NCBI RefSeq assembly: GCF_947500255.1
Contig: NZ_CANMRL010000009.1
Location: 4,692-68,691, forward strand
DNA length: 64,000 bases
Direction: 5' to 3'
DNA from: an uncultured Psychroserpens sp.
GTDB taxonomy: Bacteria > Bacteroidota > Bacteroidia > Flavobacteriales > Flavobacteriaceae
Below, one piece after another: positions 7,589 to 46,022 of the stretch. Every line of letters begins with the position of its first letter. Positions within the stretch are counted from its first letter, which is position 1. A model generated the notes under the pieces. The model did not search any database and had not been told where the DNA came from. It saw only the letters and a list, made by a program, of their open reading frames with translations. The position numbers were made by a program, and so were the translations under genes.

Positions 7589-7673
7589 ATATGTGATGGC
7601 TTAGTGACCCTAAATCTACCACATATTTAAAAAGCAAATTAGGAAAACCAAGGTTGAGGGACCTTGGTTTTTT
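7589..7673 (+). ncRNA. Candidate structured small RNA
   Basis: Hairpin ATATGTG...TTAG-TGACC-CTAA...CACATAT (7589-7626) plus terminator; no ORF. Confidence 0.4.
7644..7673. terminator. Intrinsic terminator
   Basis: AAAACCAAGGT tgaggg ACCTTGGTTTTTT. Confidence 0.85.
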
Positions 7674-7691
7674 CGTTTTATATGGTTGAAC

Positions 7692-8294: not shown

Positions 8295-8321
8295 TTAATT
8301 TTTATCTAAATTAGCTATATC

Positions 8322-9005: not shown

Positions 9006-9008
9006 ACC

Positions 9009-9746: not shown

Positions 9747-10290
9747 TGAACTTGCCTTTATATTTAATAGCTTGTTTAACATGTGCCAAGTGATGATTAC
9801 TATGCCATGCATATGTACCAATGGTTTCGTCTAATCTAAACCGTTTTCCATGTTCTGGATGTACAAACTCTCTAGATAACTCTTCCTCTGAAATATTGCG
9901 AAGTAGCTTACTCAGTTTGGCGTGTAGTCCTTTGAGTAAACTTAGTGTATCATCTAAACTATCATCATTGCTATCAATCAAATTTGCCCAGCGATCTTCA
10001 TAATAAGGTCTGATGGTTGGTGAATCTTCAGTTAGTGCAAGTTTAAACCTAATGATACTATTCATATGACTATCTGCACAATGATGCACCACTTGTTTGA
10101 TGTTCCATCCATCTGGTCTGTATTGCCATTTGAGTTGGTCTACATTTAGATCTTTGATTGCTTCATTAATCGCTTTTGGAAATTGTTCGATGTCATTTAT
10201 CCAACCCGATATCATTTCCGAAGAGATATTTTTGGGAGCAGTAAATTCACCAATTGGAAATCGTAATTTGTATAATTCTTCTGAAATCAT
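9739..10290 (-). CDS. YfiT/DinB-family metal-dependent (bacillithiol-type) transferase
   Basis: YRPDGWNIKQVVHHCADSH and YAWHSNHHLAH. Confidence 0.88.
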   Translation of the reverse strand: MISEELYKLRFPIGEFTAPKNISSEMISGWINDIEQFPKAINEAIKDLNVDQLKWQYRPDGWNIKQVVHHCADSHMNSIIRFKLALTEDSPTIRPYYEDRWANLIDSNDDSLDDTLSLLKGLHAKLSKLLRNISEEELSREFVHPEHGKRFRLDETIGTYAWHSNHHLAHVKQAIKYKGKFND

Positions 10291-10304
10291 GCCATTATTT
10301 TATT

Positions 10305-12620: not shown

Positions 12621-13509
12621 GTTTTAGCCTAATGATATTATCCGTTTTACTATACTTCAATTGTAATGGTAAAGTAATGGATTTTAAGGCAATTTCTATA
12701 TCATTATGCATAAAACTTCCTGTAAATTTTTGAGAATCGTCAATATTGTTAAATTCAACAGACACATTATATTGTCTTTCGAATTCGGCAATGACCTCTC
12801 TATATGGAATACTTTTAAAGGTACTCTTATGGTTTAACCACGATGGACTTGGTAATTCTTCTTTTTCTGTAGCAATATATTTCCCATCAATAATTAAAAA
12901 AGTATCTCCAGGTAGGAGTGTTGTTTGTTTTGTATTTGTGTGAACACCAACTTTACCTTCATAACAAGTCACTTCAAAATACTTGTCTCGCTGCTTAACA
13001 TTAAATTGAGTACCGAGAACTGTTACTGTTCCTATTTCGGTTTTTACATCAAAACGTTGTCCTTTAGCAACATTAAAAAAAGCTTCTCCTTGAAGTGATA
13101 AATTACGATTATCGTCCCAGTTAGAGGCGTTAAACACAATACTGGATACAGCATTAAGTTCAACACGTGATGCATCAGGTAATACCAAAGATTTTTGTTC
13201 AGATACCAGAGTTCTTGTGGTCGTATCTAAGCTATTGCTGTAAAAATAAATACCAAAGCAAATTACTAGTACAGCAGCAATTTTAGACACGATTGATATG
13301 AGTTTATAGCGTTTTGTAGGTTTTGATTTGACGGTGTTCCATACAGTATCTAACTCATCTTCAGTGTCTAAAGCTTTTGCTTTAAACCCTTTAAGTTGTA
13401 GGTCTAATTTGATGAGATCATTATAATCTTCAAGCTGCTTGAATGCTTCAAGCTCTTGAGGGTTAAGATCGTGATCTAACCATTTTTGTATGAGGCTTTC
13501 TCTGTTCAT
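12613..13509 (-). CDS. FecR-family anti-sigma factor
   Basis: Single TM; LPDASRVELN, LQGEAFF, VLGTQFNV. Confidence 0.92.
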   Translation of the reverse strand: MNRESLIQKWLDHDLNPQELEAFKQLEDYNDLIKLDLQLKGFKAKALDTEDELDTVWNTVKSKPTKRYKLISIVSKIAAVLVICFGIYFYSNSLDTTTRTLVSEQKSLVLPDASRVELNAVSSIVFNASNWDDNRNLSLQGEAFFNVAKGQRFDVKTEIGTVTVLGTQFNVKQRDKYFEVTCYEGKVGVHTNTKQTTLLPGDTFLIIDGKYIATEKEELPSPSWLNHKSTFKSIPYREVIAEFERQYNVSVEFNNIDDSQKFTGSFMHNDIEIALKSITLPLQLKYSKTDNIIRLKRE

Positions 13510-13525
13510 AATATAAATTCACTCA

Positions 13526-13556
13526 TATAACAGTTCAAGAATAAAAATTCCTACCT
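13526..13556 (-). promoter_or_regulatory. Candidate ECF sigma promoter of fecR-TBDR
   Basis: AGGTAGGAATTTTTA-N9-TGTTATA; same motif and spacing at 14111 and 60350. Confidence 0.65.
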
Positions 13557-13557
13557 T

Positions 13558-14073
13558 TTATAGTTCATCAATATCTTGTCTTAATTTTTTTAATGCACCA
13601 TAAATACGCTTTTCTACAGCTTTCGTAGAAATATCAAGTAATTGGGCAATTTCCTTGAAGCGTTTTCCTTCAACTCTATTCATTAAAAAGGCGACACGTT
13701 GTGCTTCGGTTAGATTGGCAATGGCTTTTTCTAATTTCTCTTTGTATTGCTTTTCTTGTAACAGAAACTCGGGATTGATATTGGTGCTGTGTTTTGGTTT
13801 GATTTGTTGATGTCTTAATACTACTTTTCGATGGGCAAATTCGTTTAACATGAGATTATTAGCTGTCGTAAACAAAAAACTTTTTGCTTTGTCCTGTGGT
13901 ACTTTAGCACAATTTTCCCACAATTTCACAAACGCTTCTTGCATTTTGTCTTGCGGATTGAACTGGCTTCCAAACTTGTAGTAGAGAAAGTCATATAAGT
14001 CTTTAGAATACTTTCTGAAGATAGAAGAAAACAATTGTTCTTCGCAAATATGTTCCTTAAGTGGTTTTGACAT
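13558..14073 (-). CDS. ECF RNA polymerase sigma factor
   Basis: sigma2 (DKMQEAFVKLW) and sigma4 (KEIAQLLDISTKAVEKR) regions. Confidence 0.92.
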   Translation of the reverse strand: MSKPLKEHICEEQLFSSIFRKYSKDLYDFLYYKFGSQFNPQDKMQEAFVKLWENCAKVPQDKAKSFLFTTANNLMLNEFAHRKVVLRHQQIKPKHSTNINPEFLLQEKQYKEKLEKAIANLTEAQRVAFLMNRVEGKRFKEIAQLLDISTKAVEKRIYGALKKLRQDIDEL

Positions 14074-35153: not shown

Positions 35154-36818
35154 ATGTGTGGAATTGTATGTGCGTTTGATTTAAAACAGAAATCGGAAGA
35201 CTTAAGACCTCAAATATTAGAAATGGCGAAAAGTATTCGTCACAGAGGACCGGACTGGAGTGGAATTTATAGTGATGAGAAAGCCATTTTGGCTCATGAA
35301 CGTTTAGCTATTGTTGATCCAGCTTCGGGTAAACAACCTTTATTTAGTGAAGATAAAAAACTCATTTTGGCTGCCAATGGAGAAATTTATAACCATAGAT
35401 TATTGCGCTCACAATTTGAAGGTAAATATCAGTTTCAAACCGAAAGCGACTGTGAAGTGATTTTAGCCTTATATCAAGAAAAAGGTGTTGATTTTGTGGA
35501 TGAGATGAACGGCATCTTCGGATTTGCAATTTATGATGCTGAAAAGGATGAGTATTTTATAGCTCGAGATCATATGGGAATTATTCCTCTTTATATAGGT
35601 TGGGATCAAAACGGAACATTTTATGTCGCCTCAGAATTGAAAGCATTAGAAGGCGTATGTACCAAAATTGAATTGTTTCCTCCTGGACATTATATGTCTA
35701 GCAAAGATGGAAAATTTGTACAGTGGTATAAGCGTGATTGGATCGAGTATGAAGCTGTAAAGGATAATGATACAAGTATTGAAGAAGTAAAGCAAGCTTT
35801 AGAAGATGCTGTACATAGACAGCTTATGAGTGATGTGCCTTATGGAGTACTTTTGTCTGGTGGATTGGACTCTTCGGTAACATCAGCCATAGCTAAAAAA
35901 TACTCTGAAAGACGTATAGAAGCTAATGATAAAGAAAAAGCTTGGTGGCCACAGCTGCACTCATTTTCTGTTGGTTTAGAGGGATCTCCTGATTTGGCTG
36001 CTGCTAAAAAAGTAGCTGATCACATTGGTACAGTGCATCATGAAATAAAGTTTACAATTCAAGAAGGCTTAGATGCTATAAGAGATGTGATATATAATAT
36101 AGAAACTTATGATATTACGACAATCCGTTCATCCACACCAATGTATTTAATGGCGAGAGTAATTAAATCAATGGGTATTAAAATGGTGTTATCTGGTGAA
36201 GGCGCAGATGAAATTTTTGGAGGCTATTTATATTTTCATAAGGCACCAAATGCAAGAGAGTTTCATGAAGAAACAGTTCGTAAATTAGATAAATTACATA
36301 TGTATGATTGTTTAAGAGCAAATAAAAGTTTAGCAGCTTGGGGAATTGAAGGGAGAGTTCCGTTTTTAGATAAAGAATTTATGGACGTTGCCATGCGTAT
36401 CAATCCTAAAGATAAAATGATCAATGGCGAACGTATGGAGAAATGGGTTATTCGTAAAGCATTTGAAGATATGATACCAGAAAGTGTAGCTTGGAGGCAA
36501 AAGGAACAGTTCAGTGATGGAGTAGGTTATAGCTGGATTGATACGCTAAAGGCGCTTGTTGAGAGAGAAGTTACTGATGAGCAAATGAACAATGCTAAAT
36601 TTCGTTATCCAATCCAAACTCCAATAAATAAAGAGGAATACTATTACAGAAGCATTTTTGAAAGTCACTTCCCAAGCGATGCTGCAGCCTTAAGTGTTCC
36701 GCAAGAGCCTAGTGTTGCATGTAGTACAAAAATTGCTTTAGAGTGGGATGAGGCATTTAAAAACATGAATGATCCTTCTGGTAGAGCAGTAGCAAAAGTT
36801 CATGCCGATGCTTATTAA
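35154..36818 (+). CDS. asnB: Glutamine-hydrolysing asparagine synthetase B
   Basis: N-terminal MCGI, HRGPDW, LLSGGLDSS, SGEGADE, RVPFLD. Confidence 0.97.
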   Translation: MCGIVCAFDLKQKSEDLRPQILEMAKSIRHRGPDWSGIYSDEKAILAHERLAIVDPASGKQPLFSEDKKLILAANGEIYNHRLLRSQFEGKYQFQTESDCEVILALYQEKGVDFVDEMNGIFGFAIYDAEKDEYFIARDHMGIIPLYIGWDQNGTFYVASELKALEGVCTKIELFPPGHYMSSKDGKFVQWYKRDWIEYEAVKDNDTSIEEVKQALEDAVHRQLMSDVPYGVLLSGGLDSSVTSAIAKKYSERRIEANDKEKAWWPQLHSFSVGLEGSPDLAAAKKVADHIGTVHHEIKFTIQEGLDAIRDVIYNIETYDITTIRSSTPMYLMARVIKSMGIKMVLSGEGADEIFGGYLYFHKAPNAREFHEETVRKLDKLHMYDCLRANKSLAAWGIEGRVPFLDKEFMDVAMRINPKDKMINGERMEKWVIRKAFEDMIPESVAWRQKEQFSDGVGYSWIDTLKALVEREVTDEQMNNAKFRYPIQTPINKEEYYYRSIFESHFPSDAAALSVPQEPSVACSTKIALEWDEAFKNMNDPSGRAVAKVHADAY

Positions 36819-36825
36819 TAAAAAG

Positions 36826-36857
36826 AAAAAAGGAGGCTAATAGCTCTCCTTTTTTTT
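36826..36857 (+). terminator. Intrinsic terminator
   Basis: AAAAAAGGAG-GCTA a TAGC-t-CTCCTTTTTT. Confidence 0.75.
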
Positions 36858-37109
36858 CGATTAATAATTTTATCCCTAAAAATTATTAATCTCTCCATCC
36901 CAAAATTATAAACCTGAGTATGACTTATTTTATTACGAGTTTATATATTTCTATAAGACTTAAAATTGCAACAAAGCTAGATATAGAAAATAGTATAATC
37001 CATATTAAATTATAAAAGCTAAATTGTTTTTTATTAGTTGTTTTCATAATCATTTTTTTAAGGGAAGGCTATGTTAATACAATCACCTTCCCAAGTATTA
37101 ACAGCTTAA

Positions 37110-39833
37110 TTATCTTTTTATTATTCTCTTAGTAACAATGGCTTTACTATTTGTATCTGTAATGTTTATGAGATACATACCACTTTCAAAATTTGAAATA
37201 TTAATTTGTAAAGCATTGCTTAAATTAGAAGTATTTTGATATACTTTTCTTCCTCTTAAATCGTACATTTCTACTGAAGCATTAATACTCTCACTTGAAT
37301 TATTGCTAATATTAATTATATCTATAGCTGGATTAGGAAATACATTTAGTGTATTAGAAAGACTAAAATCATCTACACTTAATGATTCGCAGTCAGTTCC
37401 AGTTAAGCGTGTTACAATAATTGCATTATCAGAAATATCAGAACAATCTAAGTTGTCAAGAGATGATAAAGGTTGGCCAATTTGATCAAGTCCGTTATTA
37501 GGAACACCTCTATAAGACCATCCCCAAATTTCACATACACCTGCTCCAGCACCGTCTAAATCAATAACGTTAGTATTAACAACATTTAAAATTAATCCAG
37601 TATTTGCGTCTGTAATAACATATCTATAGGATAGATTTTCAGCACCAGGATTTTCATGTATAACGTCTAACGGGTTTGGAAGGCCATCTCCTGCGCAAAT
37701 TGAAATTTCTGTATCTCCATTTGAAAGACTTACAGTACCACCATCGGCAGCTTCACGGATAACATTTACAGCATTATCAGAGATGTCTGAACATTCAGCA
37801 GCATCAAGATCAGCTAAAGGTCCACCAATAAACGATGCACCATTATCAGCCATTCCTCTGTATGACCATCCCCAAATTTGACAAGTACCAACACCAGCAC
37901 CATTAAGATCGATAGTTGCAGAAGGAGATATAGCTAAGATTACCGAAGCATCTTCGTTGGTAATCACATATCTATAAGATAAATTCTCAGCTCCAGGATT
38001 CTCATGAATGATCACTAAAGGATCGGCTTGTGAATCAACACAAATAACAGCTTCAGTGTCACCATTAAAAGAAGTTGTATTATTAGGATTTCCAGTAGCT
38101 GCAAGATCGATAGCAACAGTACCACCATCGGCAGCTTCACGGATAACATTTACAGCATTATCAGAGATGTCTGAACATTCAGCAGCATCAAGATCAGCTA
38201 AAGGTCCACCAATAAACGATGCACCATTGTCAGCCATTCCTCTGTATGACCATCCCCAAATTTGACAAGTACCAGCACCAGCACCATTAAGATCGATAGT
38301 TGCAGAAGGAGATATAGCTAAGATTACCGAAGCATCTTCGTTGGTAATCACATATCTATAAGATAAATTCTCAGCTCCAGGATTCTCATGAATGATCACT
38401 AAAGGATCGGCTTGTGAATCAACACAAATAACAGCTTCAGTGTCACCATTAAAAGATGTTGTATTATTAGGATTTCCAGTGGCTGCAAGATCGATAGCAA
38501 CAGTACCACCATCGGCAGCTTCGCGGATAACATTTACAGCATTATCAGAGATGTCTGAACATTCAGCAGCATCAAGATCAGCTAAAGGTCCACCAATAAA
38601 CGATGCACCATTATCAGCCATTCCTCTGTATGACCATCCCCAAATTTGACAAGTACCAACACCAGCGCCATTAAGATCGATAGTTGCAGAAGGAGATATA
38701 GCTAAGATTACCGAAGCATCTTCGTTGGTAATCACATATCTATAAGATAAATTCTCAGCTCCAGGATTCTCATGAATGATCACTAAAGGATCGGCTTGTG
38801 AATCAACACAAATAACAGCTTCAGTGTCACCATTAAAAGAAGTTGTATTATTAGGATTTCCAGTAGCTGCAAGATCGATAGCAACAGTACCACCATCGGC
38901 AGCTTCACGGATGACTTGTACTGGATTTGATAAATCAAAGCATCCAGTTAAATCTGATAAGCTATTACCAACTATATTTCCAGAAAAATCATTCTCGTAG
39001 CGTACATACCAAATTTCACATATACCAGTTCCTGCGCCATTTAAATTAAAAGGCCCACTACTTGGAAGTCCTAAGATTTCATTCGTAGCGGCATCAGTAA
39101 TAATAAATCCTGAATTAGTACCTACACTGCCAGAGCCTATATTTACATTAATGAAGTCATCTTGGTTATCAACACAAATAACAGCGTTTAAACCGTCAGC
39201 AGCAACTGTAGTGGTATTGTTTAAATTAGTATTATCAATTGTAATATCTGCAGCATGCGCATTACATATAACAATATTATTATCACTACCTAGAGTGTCA
39301 GTATCTTCAAAATAATCAGAAGGGCTATCACCTGTGCCATCATATTGTAGAGATAGAGATTCTCCAAATGCAGGAATAAAATCTGTTGCAATACTCCAAA
39401 CTCCTGCGCCTACCGCAACGTTTGCACGACCGTGATTTCCAGATCCCCATTGAATATAATCTACTATAGCAGAACTACTTCCAAAAGAGTTAGTTGAGTA
39501 TAAACCTAATTCACCATCGGCACTATCGATAAAGTTGAATCCGCTTATTTCTAAGATTGCTCCTGGAGTCATATTAAGGTTTCCGGACTCTACAGTGATA
39601 GAACCATTATTCAATTGTCTATAACTAGGGAAGTCACATAACCAATAGGTTGAGACATCTATTGTTGTAGCACCTAAATTTTTAAGTTCTACGCTTCCGT
39701 TTTCTTTAACTTCATTTATAACAATTTGAGCTTGTGAAAAGCTAACTGCGAATAAAAAGAAAAAAAGAAACACTACTTTGTTAAAATGTGTGGCAGAAAT
39801 CGTGGGCCACTTTTTGAGTACTTTTTTCATCAT
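37110..39833 (-). CDS. T9SS type-A cargo: lamin-tail-like N-domain plus five Cys-containing repeat domains
   Basis: Signal peptide; YWLC domain; 128-aa repeats; CTD VFPNP...YDLRGRKV...SGMYLI...KRIIKR. Confidence 0.9.
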   Translation of the reverse strand: MMKKVLKKWPTISATHFNKVVFLFFFLFAVSFSQAQIVINEVKENGSVELKNLGATTIDVSTYWLCDFPSYRQLNNGSITVESGNLNMTPGAILEISGFNFIDSADGELGLYSTNSFGSSSAIVDYIQWGSGNHGRANVAVGAGVWSIATDFIPAFGESLSLQYDGTGDSPSDYFEDTDTLGSDNNIVICNAHAADITIDNTNLNNTTTVAADGLNAVICVDNQDDFINVNIGSGSVGTNSGFIITDAATNEILGLPSSGPFNLNGAGTGICEIWYVRYENDFSGNIVGNSLSDLTGCFDLSNPVQVIREAADGGTVAIDLAATGNPNNTTSFNGDTEAVICVDSQADPLVIIHENPGAENLSYRYVITNEDASVILAISPSATIDLNGAGVGTCQIWGWSYRGMADNGASFIGGPLADLDAAECSDISDNAVNVIREAADGGTVAIDLAATGNPNNTTSFNGDTEAVICVDSQADPLVIIHENPGAENLSYRYVITNEDASVILAISPSATIDLNGAGAGTCQIWGWSYRGMADNGASFIGGPLADLDAAECSDISDNAVNVIREAADGGTVAIDLAATGNPNNTTSFNGDTEAVICVDSQADPLVIIHENPGAENLSYRYVITNEDASVILAISPSATIDLNGAGVGTCQIWGWSYRGMADNGASFIGGPLADLDAAECSDISDNAVNVIREAADGGTVSLSNGDTEISICAGDGLPNPLDVIHENPGAENLSYRYVITDANTGLILNVVNTNVIDLDGAGAGVCEIWGWSYRGVPNNGLDQIGQPLSSLDNLDCSDISDNAIIVTRLTGTDCESLSVDDFSLSNTLNVFPNPAIDIINISNNSSESINASVEMYDLRGRKVYQNTSNLSNALQINISNFESGMYLINITDTNSKAIVTKRIIKR
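37732..38912. repeat. Intragenic tandem repeat, 384-bp unit, about 3.1 copies
   Basis: ACAGTACCACCATCGGCAGC starts at 37732, 38116, 38500 and 38884; copies differ at only a few positions. Confidence 0.95.
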
Positions 39834-39921
39834 TCAATTTTTTTTGTGATTAAAATGTTTTATTAATTTGATGATGCAAATAAAATGAGGAAAGGAACCT
39901 TAATACAATTAAATTATAGCG

Positions 39922-39950
39922 AAGCGGAAAATGGGGCTTTAAAACGGAAT
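39922..39950. promoter_or_regulatory. LytTR-type direct repeat box 1
   Basis: AAGCGGAAAAT...AAAACGGAAT, 20-bp period. Confidence 0.7.
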
Positions 39951-40156
39951 TGTTGAAAGTATTGTAAACAGTGGTGTTGTCATCTTTTTGTTTGGAAATC
40001 ACTACGACTTAGAAGTTATTGGCGTTTATTTGAAGAATTTTGAAGAATTAAACCTTTTTTAAGTGAATTGTATTAATATACCATAGTGAGACTTTTTTGT
40101 ATTTAATCTAAATGAGTTTAGTTTTATTCTAAAAGACACAAGGAATTATAATAAAG

Positions 40157-40187
40157 AAAAAAGGCATCAATACTATTGATGCCTTTT
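40157..40187 (-). terminator. Intrinsic terminator of the lipoprotein gene
   Basis: AAAAGGCATCAATA c TATTGATGCCTTTT with a T6 tract on -. Confidence 0.8.
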
Positions 40188-40227
40188 AGGTTGGTTATTA
40201 AATATAAGTAGGTAACGTTAATCGGGC

Positions 40228-41187
40228 TTAATTCCAAAATGTAGAGCCAAAATCATCAGCTTCTCCAGTAAAGTTGTAAGGGGATCCTCCTTGTAAAAAA
40301 TTATCGGCATTATCCCAGCGTCCAGCAGTTACCGCTTGGTTAACTCGAGCTTGATTGGCAGCACCCCATTGTACATAATCTACTAGTACGTTTGGATCTG
40401 TAGATCCAAATGAATTTGTAGAAAAAATACTTAACCCATCTGCTGTTGGATTCACATCATAAGATAATGTAATACTAGCATTAGGTGCTAAGTTTGTTGA
40501 ACCTGAAGCCGCATTAGAAACTTGAACATAGGTTCCAGGTCCAAGACATAACCAGTAATCTCCTATATCTATTGCTGTACCTCCAAGGTTAGATATCGTA
40601 ACTTGGTCTGTTGTGGTATTGACTTCCAAAATCTTTACAACACTAGGAGTTGGTGTGACTACTACAGTTGTTCCTTCCCAAAAAGTAGATCCAAATTGAT
40701 TGGCTTGTCCATTAAAAATGTAAGGAGACCCTTCTTGAACGAAGTTGTTAGCATTATCCCAACGTCCAGCTGTTATGGCTTGGTTAACTCGAGCTTGATT
40801 GGCAGCTCCCCATTGTACATAATCTAAAAGTACGTTTGGGTCTGATGATCCAAATGTGTTGGTAGTAAAAATACTAAGTCCGTCTGCGGTAGGGTTAACA
40901 TCATATGATAGAGTGATGTTTTGATTTGGACTTAAGTTTGTTGAACTATTTGTAGCATCGGAAATTTGAACATAAGTTCCAGGACCTAAGCATAGCCAGT
41001 AAGTACCAATATCTACTGAAGCATCACCAAAATTTGAAATAATAATTTCGTCTGTGTCGGCATTTACCTCTGTAATGCGAATAATACTCTCGCCAATATC
41101 AATTGGATTAATAGTGTCGTCATCTGAACTACAGCTTGCAAATAAAGCTGTTAGTATCATGAATAAAAAAAAATTTTTCATTTTCAT
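40228..41187 (-). CDS. Surface lipoprotein with two lamin-tail-like YWLC domains
   Basis: FASC lipobox followed by SSDDD; internal duplication with 444-bp (148-aa) period. Confidence 0.85.
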   Translation of the reverse strand: MKMKNFFLFMILTALFASCSSDDDTINPIDIGESIIRITEVNADTDEIIISNFGDASVDIGTYWLCLGPGTYVQISDATNSSTNLSPNQNITLSYDVNPTADGLSIFTTNTFGSSDPNVLLDYVQWGAANQARVNQAITAGRWDNANNFVQEGSPYIFNGQANQFGSTFWEGTTVVVTPTPSVVKILEVNTTTDQVTISNLGGTAIDIGDYWLCLGPGTYVQVSNAASGSTNLAPNASITLSYDVNPTADGLSIFSTNSFGSTDPNVLVDYVQWGAANQARVNQAVTAGRWDNADNFLQGGSPYNFTGEADDFGSTFWN

Positions 41188-41264
41188 TGCGTTTAAATTT
41201 GTTTAAATTATTTGATACCGTAAATGACGTCTGTTTTTATGCATCCTGACAACAAAAAAGTGCG

Positions 41265-41294
41265 AAACGGAAAATTGCCAGTTAAAACGGAAAA
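41265..41294. promoter_or_regulatory. LytTR-type direct repeat box 2
   Basis: AAACGGAAAAT...AAAACGGAAAAT, 20-bp period. Confidence 0.75.
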
Positions 41295-41324
41295 TTTGTA
41301 GACTTATTTATTTCAAAAGGATTA

Positions 41325-42200
41325 TTACAATTGAATATGATAAGTAGCGTGGAAGCCAAAGAAGAAATTTCCATCTCTAAAATTAAAGTTTTGGGCAGTT
41401 TGAGTGATGAAAGCATCTTCAGTGAAAATTTGATTATTGGTCATTTTAAACTGTAATAATAAGTCACTAACTTCCCAATTTGCTCCTAGTGAGAACGCAC
41501 CAAAAGTTTCTATAGATTTTAGAGGATTTGCAACATAATAATATTCTGAAACAATAGAGACGTGATTGCTTACTTTATAACGTGAGCCAAAACCTACAGC
41601 GAAATGATTATGATCATCGACACTAAAATTAGAAGATGTTCTATGAACGAATGTCGGTGATATTTGAAGCGAAAAATCTCTCGTTATTTTTCTTGCAATT
41701 AATAGTTGAGTTGTAAAAGCCAATTTTTCACCAAAAGTATTTCTACGTTCAATTCCTTTTATGGATCGCGTTCGGTAAGTGCTTGTTTGCAATAAGGTTA
41801 TACCTACAGGACTTCCTTTTTTTGTTGTACTTTGTTGAAATAGCCTATACTTTAAGTAAGAATCGATTATGCCATTTGGGTTTCCAGAGCCTATTCCAAA
41901 GGTTAAACGATCGGAAATCCCATAATCCAATCCTACTCTTGTGCACATTCTATCAGCTATAAAAGAATTACTTGTCTCTTGTGGAACATTCCAATAACGG
42001 CTCATAAAGGAAATTTCTAATGTATTCTTTTTCCGAGTCTCAATAGAATGACCAATAGAAAGTCGAGTACCTTTAAATGTAGACATTACATAATTTTTTG
42101 TTTCTAAATCTTCATTGGCCAATTTGTCTAGCAAATTTTGAGATGATAAACATGATGGTATACTTAAGAAAAGTACAAACTGTAGTATTTTACTTTTCAT
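41325..42200 (-). CDS. DUF5777-family outer-membrane beta-barrel
   Basis: TFKGTRL..GHSIET, QLLIARK, QISPTFVHR, FFGFHATYHIQL. Confidence 0.85.
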   Translation of the reverse strand: MKSKILQFVLFLSIPSCLSSQNLLDKLANEDLETKNYVMSTFKGTRLSIGHSIETRKKNTLEISFMSRYWNVPQETSNSFIADRMCTRVGLDYGISDRLTFGIGSGNPNGIIDSYLKYRLFQQSTTKKGSPVGITLLQTSTYRTRSIKGIERRNTFGEKLAFTTQLLIARKITRDFSLQISPTFVHRTSSNFSVDDHNHFAVGFGSRYKVSNHVSIVSEYYYVANPLKSIETFGAFSLGANWEVSDLLLQFKMTNNQIFTEDAFITQTAQNFNFRDGNFFFGFHATYHIQL

Positions 42201-42780
42201 GTTGAGAATATTTAAAATTAAAAGTAACTTCTATTTTTTTTGAAATATTGGGTGACAATAAAGCGGGTACTTTGATATTATAATCGTCTATTAAAATGTC
42301 TAGACCTCCTTTGATAATGTAATTTCCATCAACTATGGATATGGTAGCTTTAATGTCGACTGATTTGGTAACATCTTTCAATGTAAAATCACCTTTTATA
42401 ATGCGAGTTTGCATGGTTTCAATACTTGGGTCAAAATCTATGATTTTTCCACTAAATGTTGCTTCAGGATATAGGTCGGATTCAATATAACTTTCGTTGA
42501 AATGTTCATGCATTAATGATTTCTTAAAAACGAAGGCCCTCATCAAAATTCTTACCGCAACTTCATTTGTCTTGGTGTCAAAGATACTTAAGGCTTGATT
42601 GTTAGTTGCTTGAATGTTTTCTACTGGAGTATAAGAGAAAAAAGAGACTTCGCCTTGTCTTTCAATGTACTCTTCTTTATAATCTTTTTTGTTTGGAAAA
42701 TGAGAAGGGTAATTAATAAAAGCGATAAGAATTAATAGTAAAGTTTTATTCATGAATACTCTTTTTATATAATAACACAA
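42190..42780 (-). CDS. YceI-family protein
   Basis: FFSYTPVENIQATN, LMHEHFNESYIESDLYPEATF; start may be MNKT a few codons in. Confidence 0.88.
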   Translation of the reverse strand: MCYYIKRVFMNKTLLLILIAFINYPSHFPNKKDYKEEYIERQGEVSFFSYTPVENIQATNNQALSIFDTKTNEVAVRILMRAFVFKKSLMHEHFNESYIESDLYPEATFSGKIIDFDPSIETMQTRIIKGDFTLKDVTKSVDIKATISIVDGNYIIKGGLDILIDDYNIKVPALLSPNISKKIEVTFNFKYSQHEK

Positions 42781-43175
42781 TTCAATAATATAACATCCAT
42801 TAAATGACCTTTTAATATGCCTTTAATTTTAACTCTTTTCCCTATGTTAAGTTGTGATACTTTTTCAATTTGATCACTTTGTAATTCGCATAAAATATAT
42901 GTTTTATGATTGCCATCAGTTAAATACAGCGTATAGATATCATTTTTATATTTTATCTCTTTTAAAATACCATCAACTTCAATAGCTTTTTCTATAAATT
43001 GTCCAAGCGATTGATTTTTATATTCAAAAATCAATTCATTTGTTGTTAGTTGTTTAGTAGTTTGTTTCTGATTCGTATTACTATCAGATTTGGTTATTAA
43101 ATCTATTGTTATAATTGTAATCGAAATAAGTAAAAACACGGCTACAAAAATTTTATCCAAATGTCGCTTTATCAT
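42765..43175 (-). CDS. Membrane-anchored OB-fold (tRNA_anti-like) protein
   Basis: N-terminal TM; KAIEVDG...LCEL...VKIKGILKGHLMDVILLNCVII. Confidence 0.8.
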   Translation of the reverse strand: MIKRHLDKIFVAVFLLISITIITIDLITKSDSNTNQKQTTKQLTTNELIFEYKNQSLGQFIEKAIEVDGILKEIKYKNDIYTLYLTDGNHKTYILCELQSDQIEKVSQLNIGKRVKIKGILKGHLMDVILLNCVII

Positions 43176-43297
43176 AATTCTAATTAATTATTTAACCTAT
43201 TATATACTACCTTAAATTGGTTACTATTTCTAATAATTAATGTAAAAGTATGTAATTAAACTCCCAAAAAAACGTCTATAGTAGCACAAAATAATTG

Positions 43298-43326
43298 AAA
43301 CGGAAAAATGAATCTTAAAGTGGAAT
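43298..43326. promoter_or_regulatory. LytTR-type direct repeat box 3
   Basis: AAACGGAAAAA...AAAGTGGAAT, 20-bp period, in the divergent spacer. Confidence 0.65.
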
Positions 43327-43406
43327 TTTGAGCTTTGAATTTTTTATGTTTTGATTACCTAACGTTTAAATTAGTGGTATAAATTAGATAACCTTACAAA
43401 CCAACA

Positions 43407-44537
43407 ATGAAAAATTATAGAATTTATATTCTGATATCAATCATTTTTAGTGTTTTATACTTGATAATATCTTATTTAGCAATAAACTTTATTTCTAAGA
43501 GCAGTTCAATTTTGCTCATTGAAAATGAAATTAATTCAGCAAAAAGAAGAGCTAAAGAGATTTCTTTGATAAGCTCAAAAGCTCTTGAAAATAAGTTAGA
43601 AAAGAATAATGTTGTAGACGCAATTCAAAAAAGTATCGAAGATGTTAACGAAGAAAATATTTTTTTATCAGTAATCGATTGGTCTGGTAAGATTGTTTGT
43701 TATCCAGATATTACAAAGGTTGGAGCCGTTGATGCTAGGGAGAACCCTTTGGTCTCTAGTGTAAAAAATGAAGTTTCAATTGAAGACCTCTATGCTTTTA
43801 TAAGCGATTATAATTTAGAAGGTAAAGAGCAAAACACTTCTGAGATTATTCGTCTTGATCCCATACCAAATTCTGATATGATCATTGCTACTCATATCAA
43901 TTTAAAAAACATTATTAGCAAACTAGATAGTTTTAAAAGTGGCTTTTTGTTTGTGTTTCTTATTCTCGGACTCATAATTTTAATTTTTCTATTAGGAATC
44001 ACACGTTATATAGGTAGTTATTATTATGAAGCTTTAGAACAACGTTCTTCTCGTTTAGAAGACGGAATGCTTAATTTATCAAAGCTCAATACGTCATTGG
44101 AGAACTACCAAAAAAATATTGCAATTATAAAAGAACAGCAAGCTAAGGCCGAAATTGAAGCATTTGAAAAAGAAGATGAAGACCAAGTAAAAGAATTGCC
44201 TAAAAAAAGACTTCTTACCTACATTAGGAATGAATTAATGCCTGTTTCAATAGAAGACATTTCTTATATCTATGTTGAAAACACCATTACTTATATTGTT
44301 AGAAAGGATGGAAAGCGCTATACAGCTAATGATAGTTTAGACCAAATTTATTCGTCTTTGGATCAAAAATTATTTTTTAGGGCTAATAGGCAAATAATTG
44401 TGTCGATCTACGCTATAGATAAGATCATTAAATTTGGGAATAGTTCTCTTAAAATAGAAACGAAACCTGCTTCGGAAATTGATATCGTTATTGGCAAAAA
44501 TAAAGCATCTTCTTTTAAACAATGGTTAGATCTATAG
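43407..44537 (+). CDS. One-component transmembrane LytTR regulator with Cache-like sensor
   Basis: TM - SVIDWSGKIVCYP domain - TM - coiled coil - LytTR (SIEDISYIYVE...FFRANRQIIV). Confidence 0.88.
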   Translation: MKNYRIYILISIIFSVLYLIISYLAINFISKSSSILLIENEINSAKRRAKEISLISSKALENKLEKNNVVDAIQKSIEDVNEENIFLSVIDWSGKIVCYPDITKVGAVDARENPLVSSVKNEVSIEDLYAFISDYNLEGKEQNTSEIIRLDPIPNSDMIIATHINLKNIISKLDSFKSGFLFVFLILGLIILIFLLGITRYIGSYYYEALEQRSSRLEDGMLNLSKLNTSLENYQKNIAIIKEQQAKAEIEAFEKEDEDQVKELPKKRLLTYIRNELMPVSIEDISYIYVENTITYIVRKDGKRYTANDSLDQIYSSLDQKLFFRANRQIIVSIYAIDKIIKFGNSSLKIETKPASEIDIVIGKNKASSFKQWLDL

Positions 44538-44599
44538 TGGGTTAAACCTTAATAGTTACACGCTTAATCTTTTTTTTGCTAGTTTAAAAATCAAAGCTA

Positions 44600-44658
44600 T
44601 ATATTTGCTGAAACCCTTATGGATACTGTATGTGACATATAGGTGACATTTAAATGTC
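44600..44658 (+). promoter_or_regulatory. sigmaA -7 element plus candidate XRE operator
   Basis: TATATTTG (44600-07); GTGACAT twice at 11-bp period; palindrome GACATTTAAATGTC (44645-58). Confidence 0.55.
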
Positions 44659-44689
44659 GTGTTAAAGACCAAGAATACGCTATAGATTT

Positions 44690-45283
44690 GTGTCAATAAA
44701 AATGACCAAAATGAAACAACGTACACTTAAAGAAAATTTAGTATACCAACGAAAGTTAAAAGGGTACACGCAAGAAGAACTTTCTCATCAAACTGGAGTT
44801 ACTGTTCGTACAATTCAGCGTATTGAAAAAGGAGAGGTGCAACCTCATTTGCAAACTGTAAAATTATTAGCAGAAGGTCTAGAAATTGATGTTAATGATT
44901 TACTAGTTTTAGATAATCCAAATGAAGAAACTCTTAAAAGAAAATGGATGATGTTAATTCATGGTTCTCCATTTTTTGGATTGCTCATACCATTTGCAAA
45001 CATCTTGATTCCAATATTTATATGGGTTAGCAAGAGCGAAGATAATAAAGTTTATGATGAGCATGGGAGAGCAGTCATTAACTTTCACTGTACCTTAAAT
45101 CTCATGTTAATTGTATCACTATTACTGTTTTTTCCATTACCTGGGTATAATTTTTTTGGAACTGTTGCTGTATTTCTTTTTGGTATTGTATTTAGCATTA
45201 AGAGTTTAATGTCTGCCTTAAGCAAAGGGACATACTACTATCCCCTTTCTATTCCATTTTTAAAACCAAAAAGTAAAGTTTAA
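44690..45283 (+). CDS. XRE-family HTH fused to DUF4870 membrane domain
   Basis: YTQEELS...VTVRTIQRIEKG; DEHGRAVINF...YYPLSIPF; start may be ATG 44702 or 44711. Confidence 0.85.
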   Translation: MSIKMTKMKQRTLKENLVYQRKLKGYTQEELSHQTGVTVRTIQRIEKGEVQPHLQTVKLLAEGLEIDVNDLLVLDNPNEETLKRKWMMLIHGSPFFGLLIPFANILIPIFIWVSKSEDNKVYDEHGRAVINFHCTLNLMLIVSLLLFFPLPGYNFFGTVAVFLFGIVFSIKSLMSALSKGTYYYPLSIPFLKPKSKV

Positions 45284-45305
45284 TCTTTTTAAAATTTCAT
45301 TTCAA

Positions 45306-46022
45306 ATGTTAGGATTATTAGTCATAATAGTAATCTCATGGGTGCTGTTGCATTTCATTGAGAAAAAGAACTTAAATGTTCTAGGAATCATTCCGAATAA
45401 AAATCGAACAATCCAGTTTATAATTGGCTTAATAATGATAAGCTTAATCTGTCTTTTAATGATCTATATTGAAACGCAGATAAAGTCGATTACATGGAAA
45501 CAACAAGTGATTAATTATAAATCAATGGGTAGTGCATTTATCTATCACCTTAGATCTGCTTTAACAGAAGATTTGGTGTTTAGAGGAGCCCTTTTGTATA
45601 TCCTCATAAGTAGAATAGGAAGTAAATGGGCAATTTTGATATCTGCATTTATCTTTGGGGTTTATCATGTCTTTTCTTATGGAATGACGAATGATAGAAT
45701 TGTTCCTATCATATACGTTGTTCTGGTTACAGGGTTTACTGGATATGTTTGGGCTTATGGATTTCATAAAACTAAATCAATCATGCTGGGTTTGGGGCTT
45801 CATATAGGCTATAATTTTATAATGACCTGCTTTTATCCAAGTCAGCCTTTTGGAGAGCTGCTATTTACCGAACTTTCAAAAACCGACTTGTCCGAATGGA
45901 ATCAATTCTATTATTCACTATTTAGAGGGTTCTTTCCTTCTATAATGACACTAATAGGTTTTAAGCTCTTATTTAAATCAAATCTCTTTGTTAATCACAT
46001 TAAGGAGGAAAATGCCAAATAA
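45306..46022 (+). CDS. CPBP (CAAX/Abi-like) intramembrane metalloprotease
   Basis: TEDLVFRG, FGVYH, GLHIGYN. Confidence 0.85.
   Translation: MLGLLVIIVISWVLLHFIEKKNLNVLGIIPNKNRTIQFIIGLIMISLICLLMIYIETQIKSITWKQQVINYKSMGSAFIYHLRSALTEDLVFRGALLYILISRIGSKWAILISAFIFGVYHVFSYGMTNDRIVPIIYVVLVTGFTGYVWAYGFHKTKSIMLGLGLHIGYNFIMTCFYPSQPFGELLFTELSKTDLSEWNQFYYSLFRGFFPSIMTLIGFKLLFKSNLFVNHIKEENAK

What the first reader, a model, noticed from the sequence alone, without database searches (positions are those of the whole stretch)
37110..44537. Self-contained LytTR regulon: OB-fold, YceI, DUF5777 barrel, surface lipoprotein and T9SS repeat protein
Seen: all three internal spacers carry the same oriented box, about GAAACGGAAAAT-N6-TTAAAACGGAAW, with CGGAA/TGGAA exactly 20 bp apart (39925/39945, 41268/41288, 43301/43321). 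Each lies 80-130 bp upstream of a minus-strand start. A terminator at 40157 explains why the last gene needs its own box. The divergent gene is a one-component TM-Cache-TM-LytTR sensor. Known: LytTR domains bind such direct repeats, YceI proteins bind lipophilic or isoprenoid ligands, and DUF5777 is an uncharacterised barrel. Inferred: an envelope-spanning system (inner-membrane OB-fold, periplasmic carrier, outer-membrane pore, surface lipoprotein, secreted partner) switched on by a periplasmic ligand. I know of no functional description of it.
Basis: partly seen in the sequence, partly recalled or inferred. Interest (0 to 1): 0.8.

Follow-up and report, generated by a model that had tools for sequence, protein, structure and literature searches.

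The report
Membrane LytTR sensor's local envelope regulon
A marine flavobacterium has a membrane-anchored sensor-regulator whose conserved DNA box sits in front of each neighbouring gene unit for envelope and surface proteins of unknown function; the switch is kept across many genera and I found no published description of it.

Summary
Three copies of GAARCGGAAAAW-N6-TTAAARYGGAAW lie at 39921, 41264 and 43297, all on the + strand, and nowhere else in the 64 kb. A weight matrix trained only on other genera scores them at 30-34 bits; the next best site scores 9.5.

The box is conserved. 76 of 80 Flavobacteriaceae loci with an orthologous regulator carry it upstream of that gene, and extra copies precede neighbouring units. 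Its half-sites (AAAnGGAA) repeat every 20 bp. It ends about 35 nt (sometimes 45) before a Bacteroidetes -7 element on the target side. That places it at roughly -44 to -77, an activator position.

The regulator has no receiver domain. It reads as TM, Cache-like periplasmic domain, TM, coiled coil, LytTR.

Targets in the window:
- an OB-fold / YceI / DUF5777 operon, the conserved core;
- a lipoprotein with two LTD domains;
- a T9SS protein with an LTD head on five Ig-like repeats.

Other genera swap the LTD genes for cupredoxin, cytochrome c, Reeler, Spondin or CHRD proteins. Some also have Sco1/YHYH genes alongside, which hints at copper or redox handling. The biochemical function is unproven. 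I rate it a new variant of a known kind.

The parts
43407..44537 (+). One-component sensor-regulator, 376 aa. Order: N-terminal TM helix, periplasmic Cache-like alpha/beta domain (about residues 30-165), second TM helix, long coiled coil to about residue 255, C-terminal LytTR DNA-binding domain (276-374). No receiver domain.
   Evidence: Pfam LytTR E=4.8e-15, and no Response_reg hit. AF2 model, pLDDT 70 overall and 81-91 across most of the N-terminal part. Foldseek hits are almost all Cache sensor domains (3ub6, 2qhk/4exo, 6ior, 5avf and others) plus the LytTR structure 3d6w. Homologues carry PF08269, PF17200 or PF17201.
43296..43329 (+). Box 3 (TGAAACGGAAAAATGAATCTTAAAGTGGAATTTT), in the divergent spacer between the OB-fold operon and the regulator gene.
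   Evidence: 33-35 bits. The orthologous box is present upstream of the regulator in 76 of 80 loci.
43243..43250 (-). Predicted -7 promoter element of the OB-YceI-DUF5777 operon (TACTTTTA), starting 45 nt after box 3 in the gene's direction.
   Evidence: Sequence. The 45-nt class makes up 22 of 121 boxed promoters. This is a prediction; the transcription start is not mapped.
43367..43374 (+). Predicted -7-like element of the regulator's own promoter (TAAATTAG), starting 37 nt after box 3.
   Evidence: Sequence. TAnnTT[TA][AG] starts at offset 37 in 31 of 70 non-redundant regulator-adjacent boxes. Prediction.
42765..43175 (-). OB-fold protein (tRNA_anti-like, 136 aa) with an N-terminal membrane anchor. 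First gene of the core operon.
   Evidence: Pfam PF12869 E=5.1e-12. Present in 77 of 80 loci. Two largely conserved Cys and no His/Met motif.
42190..42780 (-). YceI-like protein. The likely start is the ATG at 42753 (MNKTLLL...), followed by a signal sequence.
   Evidence: Pfam YceI E=2.4e-12. Present in 79 of 80 loci. Conserved LMxEHFNESYIESDxYPKAxFxG block; the alignment begins at M10.
41325..42200 (-). DUF5777 predicted outer-membrane beta-barrel (291 aa) with a signal peptide. Last gene of the core operon.
   Evidence: Pfam DUF5777 E=1.5e-72. Present in 76 of 80 loci.
41263..41296 (+). Box 2 (CGAAACGGAAAATTGCCAGTTAAAACGGAAAATT), 77 bp upstream of the lipoprotein start codon and 29 nt after the DUF5777 stop.
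   Evidence: 33.7 bits. LTD-family genes in other genera carry a box 73-96 bp upstream of their start.
40228..41187 (-). Lipoprotein (319 aa; signal peptide ending LFAS|C, then SSDDD) made of two lamin-tail-like (LTD) domains.
   Evidence: Pfam LTD E=4.9e-6, which is below the gathering score. Family members in other loci score 45-90 bits for LTD. It belongs to the boxed family 4.
40159..40187 (-). Intrinsic-terminator-like hairpin with a T-run, ending the lipoprotein transcript.
   Evidence: 13 pairs, loop of 3, tail TTCTTTATTA.
39920..39953 (+). Box 1 (CGAAGCGGAAAATGGGGCTTTAAAACGGAATTGT), 88 bp upstream of the T9SS gene start.
   Evidence: 30 bits.
39877..39884 (-). Predicted -7 element of the T9SS gene (TTTATTTG), starting 35 nt after box 1.
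   Evidence: Sequence. 78 of 121 boxed promoters have a -7-like element starting 34 or 35 nt after the box. Prediction.
37110..39833 (-). T9SS cargo protein (907 aa): signal peptide, one LTD-like head (about residues 36-185), five Ig/cadherin-like repeats of about 128 aa, and a type A C-terminal sorting domain.
   Evidence: Por_Secre_tail E=1.7e-16 and TIGR04183. The head is 35-39% identical to both lipoprotein domains, E=1e-23. AF2 model of two repeats has pLDDT 93. Foldseek hits are cadherin EC, FN3 and other Ig-like tandem modules.
37732..38912 (-). Tandem DNA repeat of 384 bp, 3.1 copies, 98% identical. It encodes three near-identical Ig-like units of the T9SS protein.

Best explanation
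This is a compact, locally acting regulon. I propose that it is switched on by a membrane-anchored one-component regulator.

Proposed mechanism. The 376-aa protein has both termini in the cytoplasm. A Cache-like domain faces the periplasm, and a LytTR DNA-binding domain follows a coiled coil on the cytoplasmic side. When the periplasmic domain is in its active state (ligand unknown), two or more LytTR domains bind a direct repeat of AAAnGGAA half-sites spaced 20 bp apart, which puts them on one face of the DNA. The repeat lies immediately upstream of the -33 region of Bacteroidetes-type promoters, at about -44 to -77. From there it would recruit RNA polymerase to three units: (i) the OB-fold / YceI / DUF5777 operon, and probably the divergent regulator gene from the same box; (ii) a lipoprotein with two LTD domains; (iii) a T9SS-exported protein that carries the same LTD head on a stalk of five Ig-like repeats.

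What is shown. The box exists. It is conserved, has a fixed orientation and phasing, and sits at a fixed distance from -7 elements. It is linked to the regulator across genera. The domain content of every gene is established.

What is inferred. Binding by this regulator, activation rather than repression, and protein localisation are not shown.

Likely function, at low confidence. The conserved OB-YceI-DUF5777 triad would be an envelope module: a membrane-anchored periplasmic protein, a periplasmic lipocalin-like carrier and an outer-membrane barrel. It would work with interchangeable surface-exposed 'head' proteins to capture or process an external small ligand. In relatives those heads are copper or haem proteins, so trace-metal (copper) or redox handling is my leading guess. 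Lipophilic-ligand transport and adhesion are the alternatives.
For: Box statistics: three sites against 0.00-0.04 expected. An independent matrix gives 30-34 bits against 9.5 for the next best site and a shuffle maximum of 20.1.

Conservation:
- 232 relatives of the regulator were found among species-representative genomes, and 80 loci were fetched.
- OB, YceI and DUF5777 lie next to the regulator in 77, 79 and 76 of 80 loci.
- A box of at least 14 bits lies within 300 bp upstream of the regulator in 76 of 80 loci.
- There are 148 hits of at least 14 bits in 1.49 Mb, against 0 in shuffles.
- 147 of 159 sites (at least 12 bits) are on the regulator's strand and 152 of 159 are intergenic.
- All 121 strong sites lie within about 6 kb of the regulator, although 10 kb was available on each side.

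Geometry:
- The target gene always lies 5' of TGAAA.. on the opposite strand. For LTD-family genes the start codon is 73-96 bp away.
- A -7-like element T[AT]nnTTT[GA] starts 34-35 nt after the box in 78 of 121 promoters and 45 nt after it in 22 of 121. There are TTG/TTTG peaks at 5-11 nt.
- A 20-bp period is found in 32 loci, against 0-3 loci for any other period from 16 to 25.
- Some loci carry tandem arrays in 20-bp register (L053, L048).

Independent loci not used for the matrix also carry boxes in the expected places: Dokdonia L081 and Zobellia L203. Five distant loci were recovered from a DNA pattern alone.

Regulator: LytTR domain and no receiver domain. TM / alpha-beta / TM / coiled-coil / LytTR model. 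Cache-type Foldseek hits. Cache Pfam hits in homologues.

Effectors.

Metal or redox context in relatives:
- Boxed genes encode Lipoprotein_15 with a cupredoxin-like C-terminus, CHRD with a cupredoxin-like C-terminus, small cytochrome c, and Reeler with CxxCH. The cupredoxin reading of these C-termini comes from my reading of the sequences; Pfam reported no cupredoxin domain there.
- HMA-like genes sit inside the operons.
- SCO1/SenC, YHYH and EF-hand genes lie alongside in three lineages.
- Fur-family, MerC, CobW and FolE genes lie alongside in Zobellia sp..
Against: - There are no binding or expression data. No RNA-seq could be found for this organism or for the two relatives tried.
- The genome-wide distribution of the box is unknown beyond 64 kb here and 10 kb on each side in relatives.
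- The window protein itself gets no Pfam Cache hit. The Foldseek E-values are weak (about 1e-2), and the LytTR part of the model has low pLDDT.
- Activation is inferred from position only.
- The copper/redox idea rests on neighbours in other genera. This window has no cupredoxin, cytochrome c, Sco1 or YHYH gene.
- Alignments of OB, YceI and DUF5777 show no conserved His/Met metal site, only two Cys in the OB protein.
- The variable base of the half-site agrees within a locus only moderately often (26/49 and 34/49, against about 15 and 19 expected), and that comparison is confounded by phylogeny.
Confidence: 0.7

Rival explanations
1. The boxes are real regulatory sites but another transcription factor binds them. 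The neighbouring LytTR protein would then be one more target, not the regulator.
For: Nothing here shows binding. The box lies upstream of the regulator gene itself in 76 of 80 loci, which is also what a shared external regulator would produce.
Against: All 121 strong sites lie within about 6 kb of the LytTR gene. A direct repeat spaced about two helical turns apart is the usual LytTR site architecture (established knowledge of AgrA, ComE, BtsR and YpdB; from memory). No other regulator gene is conserved in the loci. The box persists, with a 21-bp period, next to LytTR orthologues of only 28-50% identity.
Confidence: 0.08
2. The regulator is a repressor, or acts mainly on its own gene, and the boxed promoters are otherwise constitutive.
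For: Box 3 lies at the same distance (37 nt) from a -7-like element on the regulator side, in the opposite orientation. Many boxed promoters have a TTG or TTTG in the -33 region, so they may not strictly need an activator.
Against: The box ends upstream of the -33 region and does not cover the -7 element or the start site. That is the usual place for an activator. Known LytTR regulators with sites in this position act as activators (from memory).
Confidence: 0.1
3. Functional rival, and the first reader's idea. The module moves a lipophilic or isoprenoid compound (quinone, carotenoid, fatty-acid derivative) across the envelope, with YceI as the carrier, and has nothing to do with metals.
For: YceI-family proteins with known ligands bind polyisoprenoids or fatty-acid amides (TT1927b, HP1286; from memory). 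The conserved YceI signature is intact. This window lacks any copper or haem gene. No conserved metal-binding motif was found in the core proteins.
Against: In other genera the units driven by the same box encode cupredoxin-like (my reading of the sequences), cytochrome c and Reeler-CxxCH proteins. Operons include HMA-like genes. Sco1/YHYH operons lie alongside in three lineages. No lipid-metabolism gene is conserved in the loci.
Confidence: 0.2
4. Functional rival. The regulon is mainly a surface-adhesion or biofilm switch, with LTD heads on Ig-like stalks acting as adhesins towards algal or particle surfaces. The OB-YceI-DUF5777 genes would serve envelope maintenance.
For: The T9SS protein has cadherin/FN3-like tandem modules and near-identical repeats typical of variable surface proteins. 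DNA close to this window is found in algal and biofilm metagenomes.
Against: The LTD genes are present in only about 30 of 80 loci, whereas OB-YceI-DUF5777 is nearly universal. In other genera they are replaced by redox or metal proteins rather than by other adhesins.
Confidence: 0.12
5. The three boxes are a chance similarity, or a by-product of duplicating the LTD gene together with its promoter.
For: Boxes 1 and 2 precede paralogous LTD genes.
Against: Box 3 precedes an unrelated gene. Apart from the box and promoter elements, the three spacers do not align. A matrix trained on other genera still scores all three boxes at 30-34 bits. Chance expectation is 0.00-0.04 sites.
Confidence: 0.01

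Closest known systems
LytTR response regulators of Gram-positive peptide quorum-sensing systems (AgrA, ComE, BlpR, PlnC/D); from memory
   Same: A LytTR DNA-binding domain. Imperfect direct repeats about two helical turns apart, placed just upstream of the -35 region. A small regulon of neighbouring operons, including the regulator's own.
   Different: Here there is no receiver domain, no histidine kinase and no peptide gene. The sensor is fused to the regulator and anchored in the membrane. The half-site is AAAnGGAA with a 20-bp period, not ACAGTTAAG-like 9-mers with 12-bp spacers. The promoters are of the Bacteroidetes -33/-7 type. The targets are envelope proteins.
E. coli BtsS/BtsR (YehU/YehT) and YpdA/YpdB LytTR two-component systems; from memory
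   Same: A LytTR regulator binds a direct repeat upstream of one or a few genes for handling a small external molecule, giving a very small regulon.
   Different: Those are two-component systems and control an inner-membrane transporter. Here a single polypeptide controls periplasmic, outer-membrane and surface proteins.
Membrane-bound one-component regulators (ToxR, CadC, TcpP) and the receiver-less LytTR systems HdrRM/BrsRM of Streptococcus mutans; from memory
   Same: Signal perception outside the cytoplasm and DNA binding without phosphotransfer. HdrR and BrsR are LytTR proteins without receiver domains.
   Different: ToxR-type proteins have an N-terminal winged-helix domain and one TM helix. 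HdrR and BrsR are soluble and are held by a separate membrane inhibitor. Here there are two TM helices, a Cache-like domain between them and a C-terminal LytTR domain.
YceI family (E. coli YceI with cytochrome b561 YceJ; Thermus TT1927b; Helicobacter HP1286); from memory
   Same: The YceI domain is present above the Pfam threshold, with the family's conserved block. Like E. coli yceI-yceJ, relatives of this locus pair YceI with a redox protein, here cytochrome c.
   Different: No cytochrome b561. YceI is always paired with an OB-fold protein and a DUF5777 barrel. Its ligand is unknown.
Bacteroidetes surface-lipoprotein plus outer-membrane-barrel uptake loci (SusC/D-type PULs, HmuY/HmuR); from memory
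   Same: Surface-exposed lipoproteins and T9SS cargo are encoded beside an outer-membrane barrel and a dedicated envelope-sensing regulator.
   Different: No TonB-dependent transporter, SusD-like protein or enzyme. The barrel is small (about 290 aa). The regulator is of the LytTR type, not a hybrid two-component system or an ECF/anti-sigma pair.

Membership tests
LytTR-family transcription factor | LytTR DNA-binding domain (PF04397) | tested here: met
   E=4.8e-15, 56 bits against a cut-off of 22.6, residues 276-374. Foldseek also hits the LytTR structure 3d6w.
LytTR-family transcription factor | Candidate operator made of direct repeats about two helical turns apart, upstream of the promoter | tested here: met
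   AAAnGGAA half-sites with a 20-bp period (32 loci, against 0-3 for other periods). The repeat ends 34-35 or 45 nt before a -7 element. The period is 21 bp in distant relatives.
LytTR-family transcription factor | Demonstrated binding of the protein to the repeats | not testable with these tools
   Needs EMSA, footprinting or ChIP.
LytR/AlgR-type two-component response regulator (the name NCBI gives to homologues) | N-terminal receiver (Response_reg) domain and a partner histidine kinase | tested here: not met
   No Response_reg hit; the N-terminal 260 residues are TM / alpha-beta / TM / coiled coil. No kinase gene in the window neighbourhood or conserved in the loci.
Cache-domain extracytoplasmic sensor | Periplasmic PAS-like alpha/beta fold after a long N-terminal helix, flanked by two TM helices | tested here: inconclusive
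   The AF2 topology fits. Foldseek hits are overwhelmingly sCache and dCache ligand-binding domains, but with E about 1e-2. Pfam Cache families (PF08269, PF17200, PF17201) hit some homologues but not the window protein.
T9SS cargo (type A C-terminal domain) | C-terminal Por_Secre_tail / TIGR04183 domain and an N-terminal signal peptide | tested here: met
   PF18962 E=1.7e-16. TIGR04183 scores 47.8 bits against a cut-off of 23. The signal peptide is read from the sequence.
Lamin-tail-domain (LTD) proteins | PF00932 match above the gathering score | tested here: inconclusive
   The window lipoprotein scores 27.3 bits, below the cut-off of 34.3. BLAST-linked family members in other loci score 45-90 bits with 2-4 LTD copies. 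The T9SS head is 35-39% identical to both lipoprotein domains.
YceI family | PF04264 domain | tested here: met
   47.9 bits against a cut-off of 23.7. Conserved family block. The ligand was not tested.
DUF5777 outer-membrane barrel | PF19089 domain over its full length | tested here: met
   E=1.5e-72, profile positions 1-244 of 247. The barrel itself and its pore were not modelled.
SusC/D-type polysaccharide utilisation locus | TonB-dependent SusC-like transporter with a SusD-like lipoprotein | tested here: not met
   No such domains in any gene of the locus or conserved in relatives.

The most novel reading that the evidence does not exclude
OB-fold / YceI / DUF5777 would be the conserved engine of a previously unrecognised envelope-spanning system of marine Flavobacteriaceae. 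It would work with interchangeable surface 'heads': LTD, Lipoprotein_15-cupredoxin, CHRD-cupredoxin, Spondin, or Reeler-haem, plus a small cytochrome c. Its role would be to capture, reduce and import a scarce trace metal, most plausibly copper, or a metal-ligand complex. The whole system would be run by a one-component Cache-LytTR sensor. That would make it a new kind of acquisition or extracytoplasmic electron-transfer pathway, not a variant of TonB-dependent or ABC-type uptake.
Probability: 0.25. Interest if true: 0.8.

Novelty: new variant of a known kind. Interest (0 to 1): 0.6.

Why it matters
LytTR regulators are well studied in Firmicutes and in a few Proteobacteria. To my knowledge none has been characterised in Bacteroidota, and a Cache-LytTR one-component sensor with a defined operator has not been described. 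Full-text searches for DUF5777, and for LytTR together with YceI and Flavobacteria, returned nothing.

The system comes with its wiring already readable: one regulator, a 30-bit operator, fixed promoter geometry and a handful of targets. That makes four uncharacterised protein families directly testable in abundant, cultivable marine bacteria: DUF5777, the PF12869 OB fold, bacterial LTD and Lipoprotein_15.

If the copper/redox link holds, it would bear on how particle- and algae-associated flavobacteria obtain trace metals. The operator and regulator could also serve as an inducible expression switch for Flavobacteriaceae genetics.

Tried and rejected
1. Metagenome DNA scan. I wrote N8 instead of N7 between the half-sites, so the scan looked for a 21-bp period. 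Five hits turned out to be genuine distant loci with a 21-bp period. The intended unbiased test, asking where 20-bp boxes occur when the regulator is not used as bait, was therefore not done.

2. Expression evidence. There are no RNA runs for the window, for Kordia algicida or for Polaribacter Hel1_85. The Dokdonia Dokd-P16 locus could not be submitted, and no usable twin exists among my loci.

3. Zobellia galactanivorans lead. ZGAL_4453-4457 include two YceI genes and are strongly differentially expressed on fresh brown algae (bioRxiv 10.1101/2021.11.29.470388, supplement 2). I could not show orthology. The orthologous locus in a Zobellia sp. has one YceI gene and different neighbours, so this is probably another locus. 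I dropped it as evidence.

4. Sequence searches of the PDB with the T9SS protein, the lipoprotein and a Lipoprotein_15-cupredoxin protein gave no hits.

5. Rfam finds no RNA family in 36800-44800. Sigma-70-type promoter consensus matches are not enriched (32 found, 39.6 expected), as expected for a Bacteroidetes genome.

6. Literature searches for COG4315/PF03640, for the ZGAL tags and for membrane-bound Cache-LytTR regulators found nothing relevant.

7. I looked for conserved metal-binding residues in OB, YceI and DUF5777 and found none beyond two Cys in the OB protein.

8. HTH_3-DUF4870 and the CAAX protease downstream of the regulator were considered as members and rejected. They are conserved only in Psychroserpens.

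Full report
OBSERVATION. The finding is accurate. The window holds five minus-strand genes between 37110 and 43175 and a divergent plus-strand gene at 43407-44537. The three internal spacers each contain one copy of GAARCGGAAAAW-N6-TTAAARYGGAAW, at 39921, 41264 and 43297, all written on the + strand. With up to three mismatches allowed there is no further copy in 64 kb, and none in 100 shuffles. The bare pattern CGGAA-N15-YGGAA gives the same three sites against 0.04 expected. The boxes lie 88, 77 and 122 bp upstream of the start codons of the T9SS gene, the lipoprotein gene and the OB-fold gene. A 13-pair hairpin with a T-run follows the lipoprotein gene on the minus strand at 40187-40159. 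Outside the box and a few promoter positions the three spacers do not align.

GENES.
- Pfam assigns Por_Secre_tail to the 907-aa protein, DUF5777 (E=1.5e-72) to the 291-aa protein, and YceI to the 196-aa protein. The 136-aa protein is a tRNA_anti-like OB fold, and residues 276-374 of the divergent 376-aa protein are a LytTR domain. There is no receiver domain.
- The lipoprotein scores below threshold for the lamin tail domain (LTD). Relatives in the same BLAST family score 45-90 bits with two to four LTD copies.
- The N-terminal 150 residues of the T9SS protein are 35-39% identical to both lipoprotein domains, E=1e-23. The two accessory genes therefore display the same head domain.
- The middle of the T9SS gene is a 384-bp tandem repeat, 3.1 copies at 98% identity. 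An AlphaFold model of two units (pLDDT 93) is a pair of beta-sandwiches whose Foldseek neighbours are cadherin EC, FN3 and other Ig-like tandem modules. This is a stalk, not an enzyme.
- No RNA family is found in the region.

THE BOX IS CONSERVED AND TRAVELS WITH THE REGULATOR. The regulator has close homologues across Flavobacteriaceae. A scan of one genome per species found 232 relatives; I fetched the best 80 loci with 10-kb flanks. The window is essentially Psychroserpens luteolus (L001, 98% protein identity).
- OB, YceI and DUF5777 homologues lie beside the regulator in 77, 79 and 76 of the 80 loci. The exceptions are short contigs. LTD-family genes occur in about 30 loci.
- In 55 loci a bipartite motif A.GGAR-N15-.GGAR lies within 200 bp upstream of the regulator. 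The consensus is TGAAAnGGAAwwT-N5-yTTAAAAnGGAAT.
- A 34-bp matrix built from these sites holds 30.7 bits. It finds 148 sites of at least 14 bits in 1.49 Mb, against none in shuffles.
- Of 159 sites of at least 12 bits, 147 are on the regulator's strand and 152 are intergenic.
- A matrix rebuilt without any locus whose regulator is 75% or more identical to the window's still scores the three window boxes at 30.0, 33.7 and 33.1 bits. The next best window site scores 9.5, and the maximum over 200 shuffled windows is 20.1.
- The 20-bp period is found in 32 loci, against 0-3 for every other period from 16 to 25, and never on the opposite strand.
- Loci not used for the matrix behave the same way. 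Dokdonia sp. Dokd-P16 has boxes in front of a 325-aa gene and between the OB and regulator genes. A Zobellia sp. has one 74 bp upstream of its Lipoprotein_15 gene.

GEOMETRY.
- The target gene always lies on the 5' side of TGAAA.. on the opposite strand. For the LTD family the start codon is 73-96 bp from the box edge in 22 of 24 cases; for Lipoprotein_15 genes it is 62-83 bp. The rare minus-oriented boxes precede plus-strand genes.
- With 121 strong sites aligned on the box, a -7-like element T[AT]nnTTT[GA] begins 34-35 nt after the box in 78 and 45 nt after it in 22. TTG/TTTG peaks lie 5-11 nt after the box. This matches the Bacteroidetes -33/-7 promoter type (established knowledge, from memory).
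- The box therefore spans roughly -44 to -77. It abuts the -33 region and does not cover the -7 element or the start site, which is an activator position.
- In the window the predicted -7 elements are TTTATTTG (39877-39884), TCATTTAC (41220-41227, weak) and TACTTTTA (43243-43250, the 45-nt class), all read.
- On the regulator side of box 3, TAnnTT[TA][AG] starts at offset 37 in 31 of 70 non-redundant loci, including the window (TAAATTAG, 43367-43374). Box 3 probably serves both divergent promoters, so autoregulation is likely.
- All 121 strong sites lie within about 6 kb of the regulator, and none lies in the outer 4 kb on either side. That supports a local regulon within the limits of what I could see.
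- Several loci carry tandem arrays in 20-bp register, which suggests cooperative oligomeric binding.

THE REGULATOR. The AlphaFold model has mean pLDDT 70, with 81-91 across most of the N-terminal part and lower confidence in the LytTR part. It shows a TM helix continuing into a long helix, an alpha/beta domain at residues 62-165, and a second hydrophobic helix continuing into a coiled coil to residue 255. A beta-rich domain follows. Charges flanking the hydrophobic segments put both termini in the cytoplasm (read). Foldseek against the PDB returns almost only Cache-type ligand-binding domains of chemoreceptors and kinases (TlpB, 2qhk/4exo, Mlp24/37, PctA-C, CtaA) plus a LytTR domain, but with weak E-values. 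Some homologues carry Pfam Cache hits PF08269, PF17200 or PF17201; the window protein does not. I accept 'Cache-like' with moderate confidence. The NCBI name 'LytR/AlgR response regulator' is wrong in one respect: there is no receiver domain.

WHAT THE REGULON DOES.
- Across genera the constant part is OB-YceI-DUF5777.
- Saonia, Flagellimonas/Allomuricauda, Ulvibacterium, Polaribacter and Aquimarina have two modules, each behind its own box. Module A is a head gene followed by OB, YceI and a DUF5777 of about 300 aa. Module B is a small lipoprotein cytochrome c (CxxCH) followed by YceI, OB and a DUF5777 of 281 aa. Module B is often followed by a small CxxC HMA-like protein.
- The head gene varies. 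It can be an LTD lipoprotein or a Spondin_N lipoprotein. It can be Lipoprotein_15 repeats, or a CHRD domain, in each case ending in a cupredoxin-like domain with a His...Cys-x2-His-x2-Met pattern; that cupredoxin reading is mine, from the sequences, and Pfam reported none. It can also be a T9SS protein with a Reeler/choice-of-anchor-V domain and a CxxCH motif.
- An EF-hand / YHYH / SCO1-SenC operon lies directly beside the regulon in Flagellimonas-type and Aquimarina loci, whose other flanks differ. YHYH also lies nearby in Kordia.
- In a Zobellia sp. the neighbours are a Fur-family regulator, MerC, FolE and a CobW-type GTPase.
- These associations point to trace-metal (copper) or extracytoplasmic redox handling. 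They come from other genera, however. The Psychroserpens window contains none of these markers, and the core proteins show no conserved His/Met site.
- The function is therefore an inference. I rank metal/redox handling first, a lipophilic ligand carried by YceI second, and adhesion third.

COMPARISON WITH KNOWN SYSTEMS (from memory unless a call is cited). The system works like the LytTR activators AgrA, ComE and BlpR, and like BtsR and YpdB. All use direct repeats two helical turns apart just upstream of the promoter, control a small neighbouring regulon, and probably autoregulate. It is not a member of the two-component LytR/AlgR class, because the receiver domain was tested for and is absent. 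It resembles ToxR/CadC in being a membrane-bound one-component regulator, and HdrR/BrsR in being a receiver-less LytTR protein. Its architecture (two TM helices, a Cache-like domain, a C-terminal LytTR domain) matches neither. I found no paper on DUF5777, none combining LytTR, YceI and Flavobacteria, and none describing such a regulator.

LIMITS AND FAILURES.
- There is no binding or expression evidence.
- My single metagenome scan was mis-specified with a 21-bp period. It returned mostly chance hits, plus five genuine distant loci that do use 21 bp.
- No usable RNA-seq was found.
- A transcriptomic lead in Zobellia galactanivorans could not be tied to this locus and was dropped.
- Within-locus agreement of the variable half-site base is only moderate and is confounded by phylogeny.

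VERDICT. This is a new variant of a known regulatory kind that controls an uncharacterised, widely conserved envelope module. Interest 0.6.

Noticed in passing
window 37732-38912: A 384-bp tandem repeat, 3.1 copies at 98% identity, lies inside the T9SS gene. In the P. luteolus XSD401 assembly (L001) the gene appears as two shorter ORFs (574 and 375 aa), and public proteins of this family are mostly marked 'partial'. This reflects either copy-number variation or assembly collapse.
   Followed up: partly
window 44690-46022: An HTH_3 + DUF4870 membrane protein and an Rce1-like CAAX protease follow the regulator on the same strand. They are kept there only in Psychroserpens (L001, L002), so they are not part of the regulon. 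The pair itself is uncharacterised.
   Followed up: partly
L040, L044, L047, L048, L051, L062, L067, L073, L077 (about 2000-14000): Many genera carry two paralogous modules, each behind its own box. One is head gene-OB-YceI-DUF5777 (about 300 aa). The other is cytochrome c-YceI-OB-DUF5777 (281 aa), often followed by an HMA-like CxxC protein or a 4HBT thioesterase-like gene. Gene order of OB and YceI is inverted between the two modules.
   Followed up: partly
L045, L051, L057, L065, L078, L067, L074 (next to the regulon); L013, L020: An EF-hand / YHYH / SCO1-SenC operon lies directly beside the regulon in Flagellimonas-type and Aquimarina genomes, whose other neighbours differ. YHYH also lies a few genes away in Kordia. 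No box was found in front of this operon.
   Followed up: partly
L203 3900-6500 (Zobellia sp.): A Fur-family regulator, MerC, GTP cyclohydrolase I and a CobW-type GTPase lie immediately after the DUF5777 gene. This set is typical of zinc or other metal-starvation responses.
   Followed up: no
L120:1450, L124:6023, L132:1771, L165:1094, L194:2633: Metagenome contigs with distant LytTR orthologues (28-50% identity) and the same gene set carry the box upstream of the regulator with a 21-bp half-site period instead of 20 bp.
   Followed up: partly
L053:9857-9929; L048, L058, L064, L070 around 9848-9901: Three or four half-sites stand in tandem in 20-bp register upstream of the regulator and cytochrome c genes. 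This suggests higher-order oligomers of the regulator.
   Followed up: no
bioRxiv 10.1101/2021.11.29.470388, supplementary file 2: In Zobellia galactanivorans, ZGAL_4453 (YceI), 4454, 4455 (YceI) and 4457 change by up to 6.5 log2 units between growth conditions on brown algae. Orthology to this regulon is not shown and seems unlikely given the neighbours.
   Followed up: partly
window 39990-40060: The long spacer between the lipoprotein terminator and box 1 contains a short direct repeat (ttgaagaatt ttgaagaatt) and no ORF of 60 aa or more. Its role, if any, is unknown.
   Followed up: no
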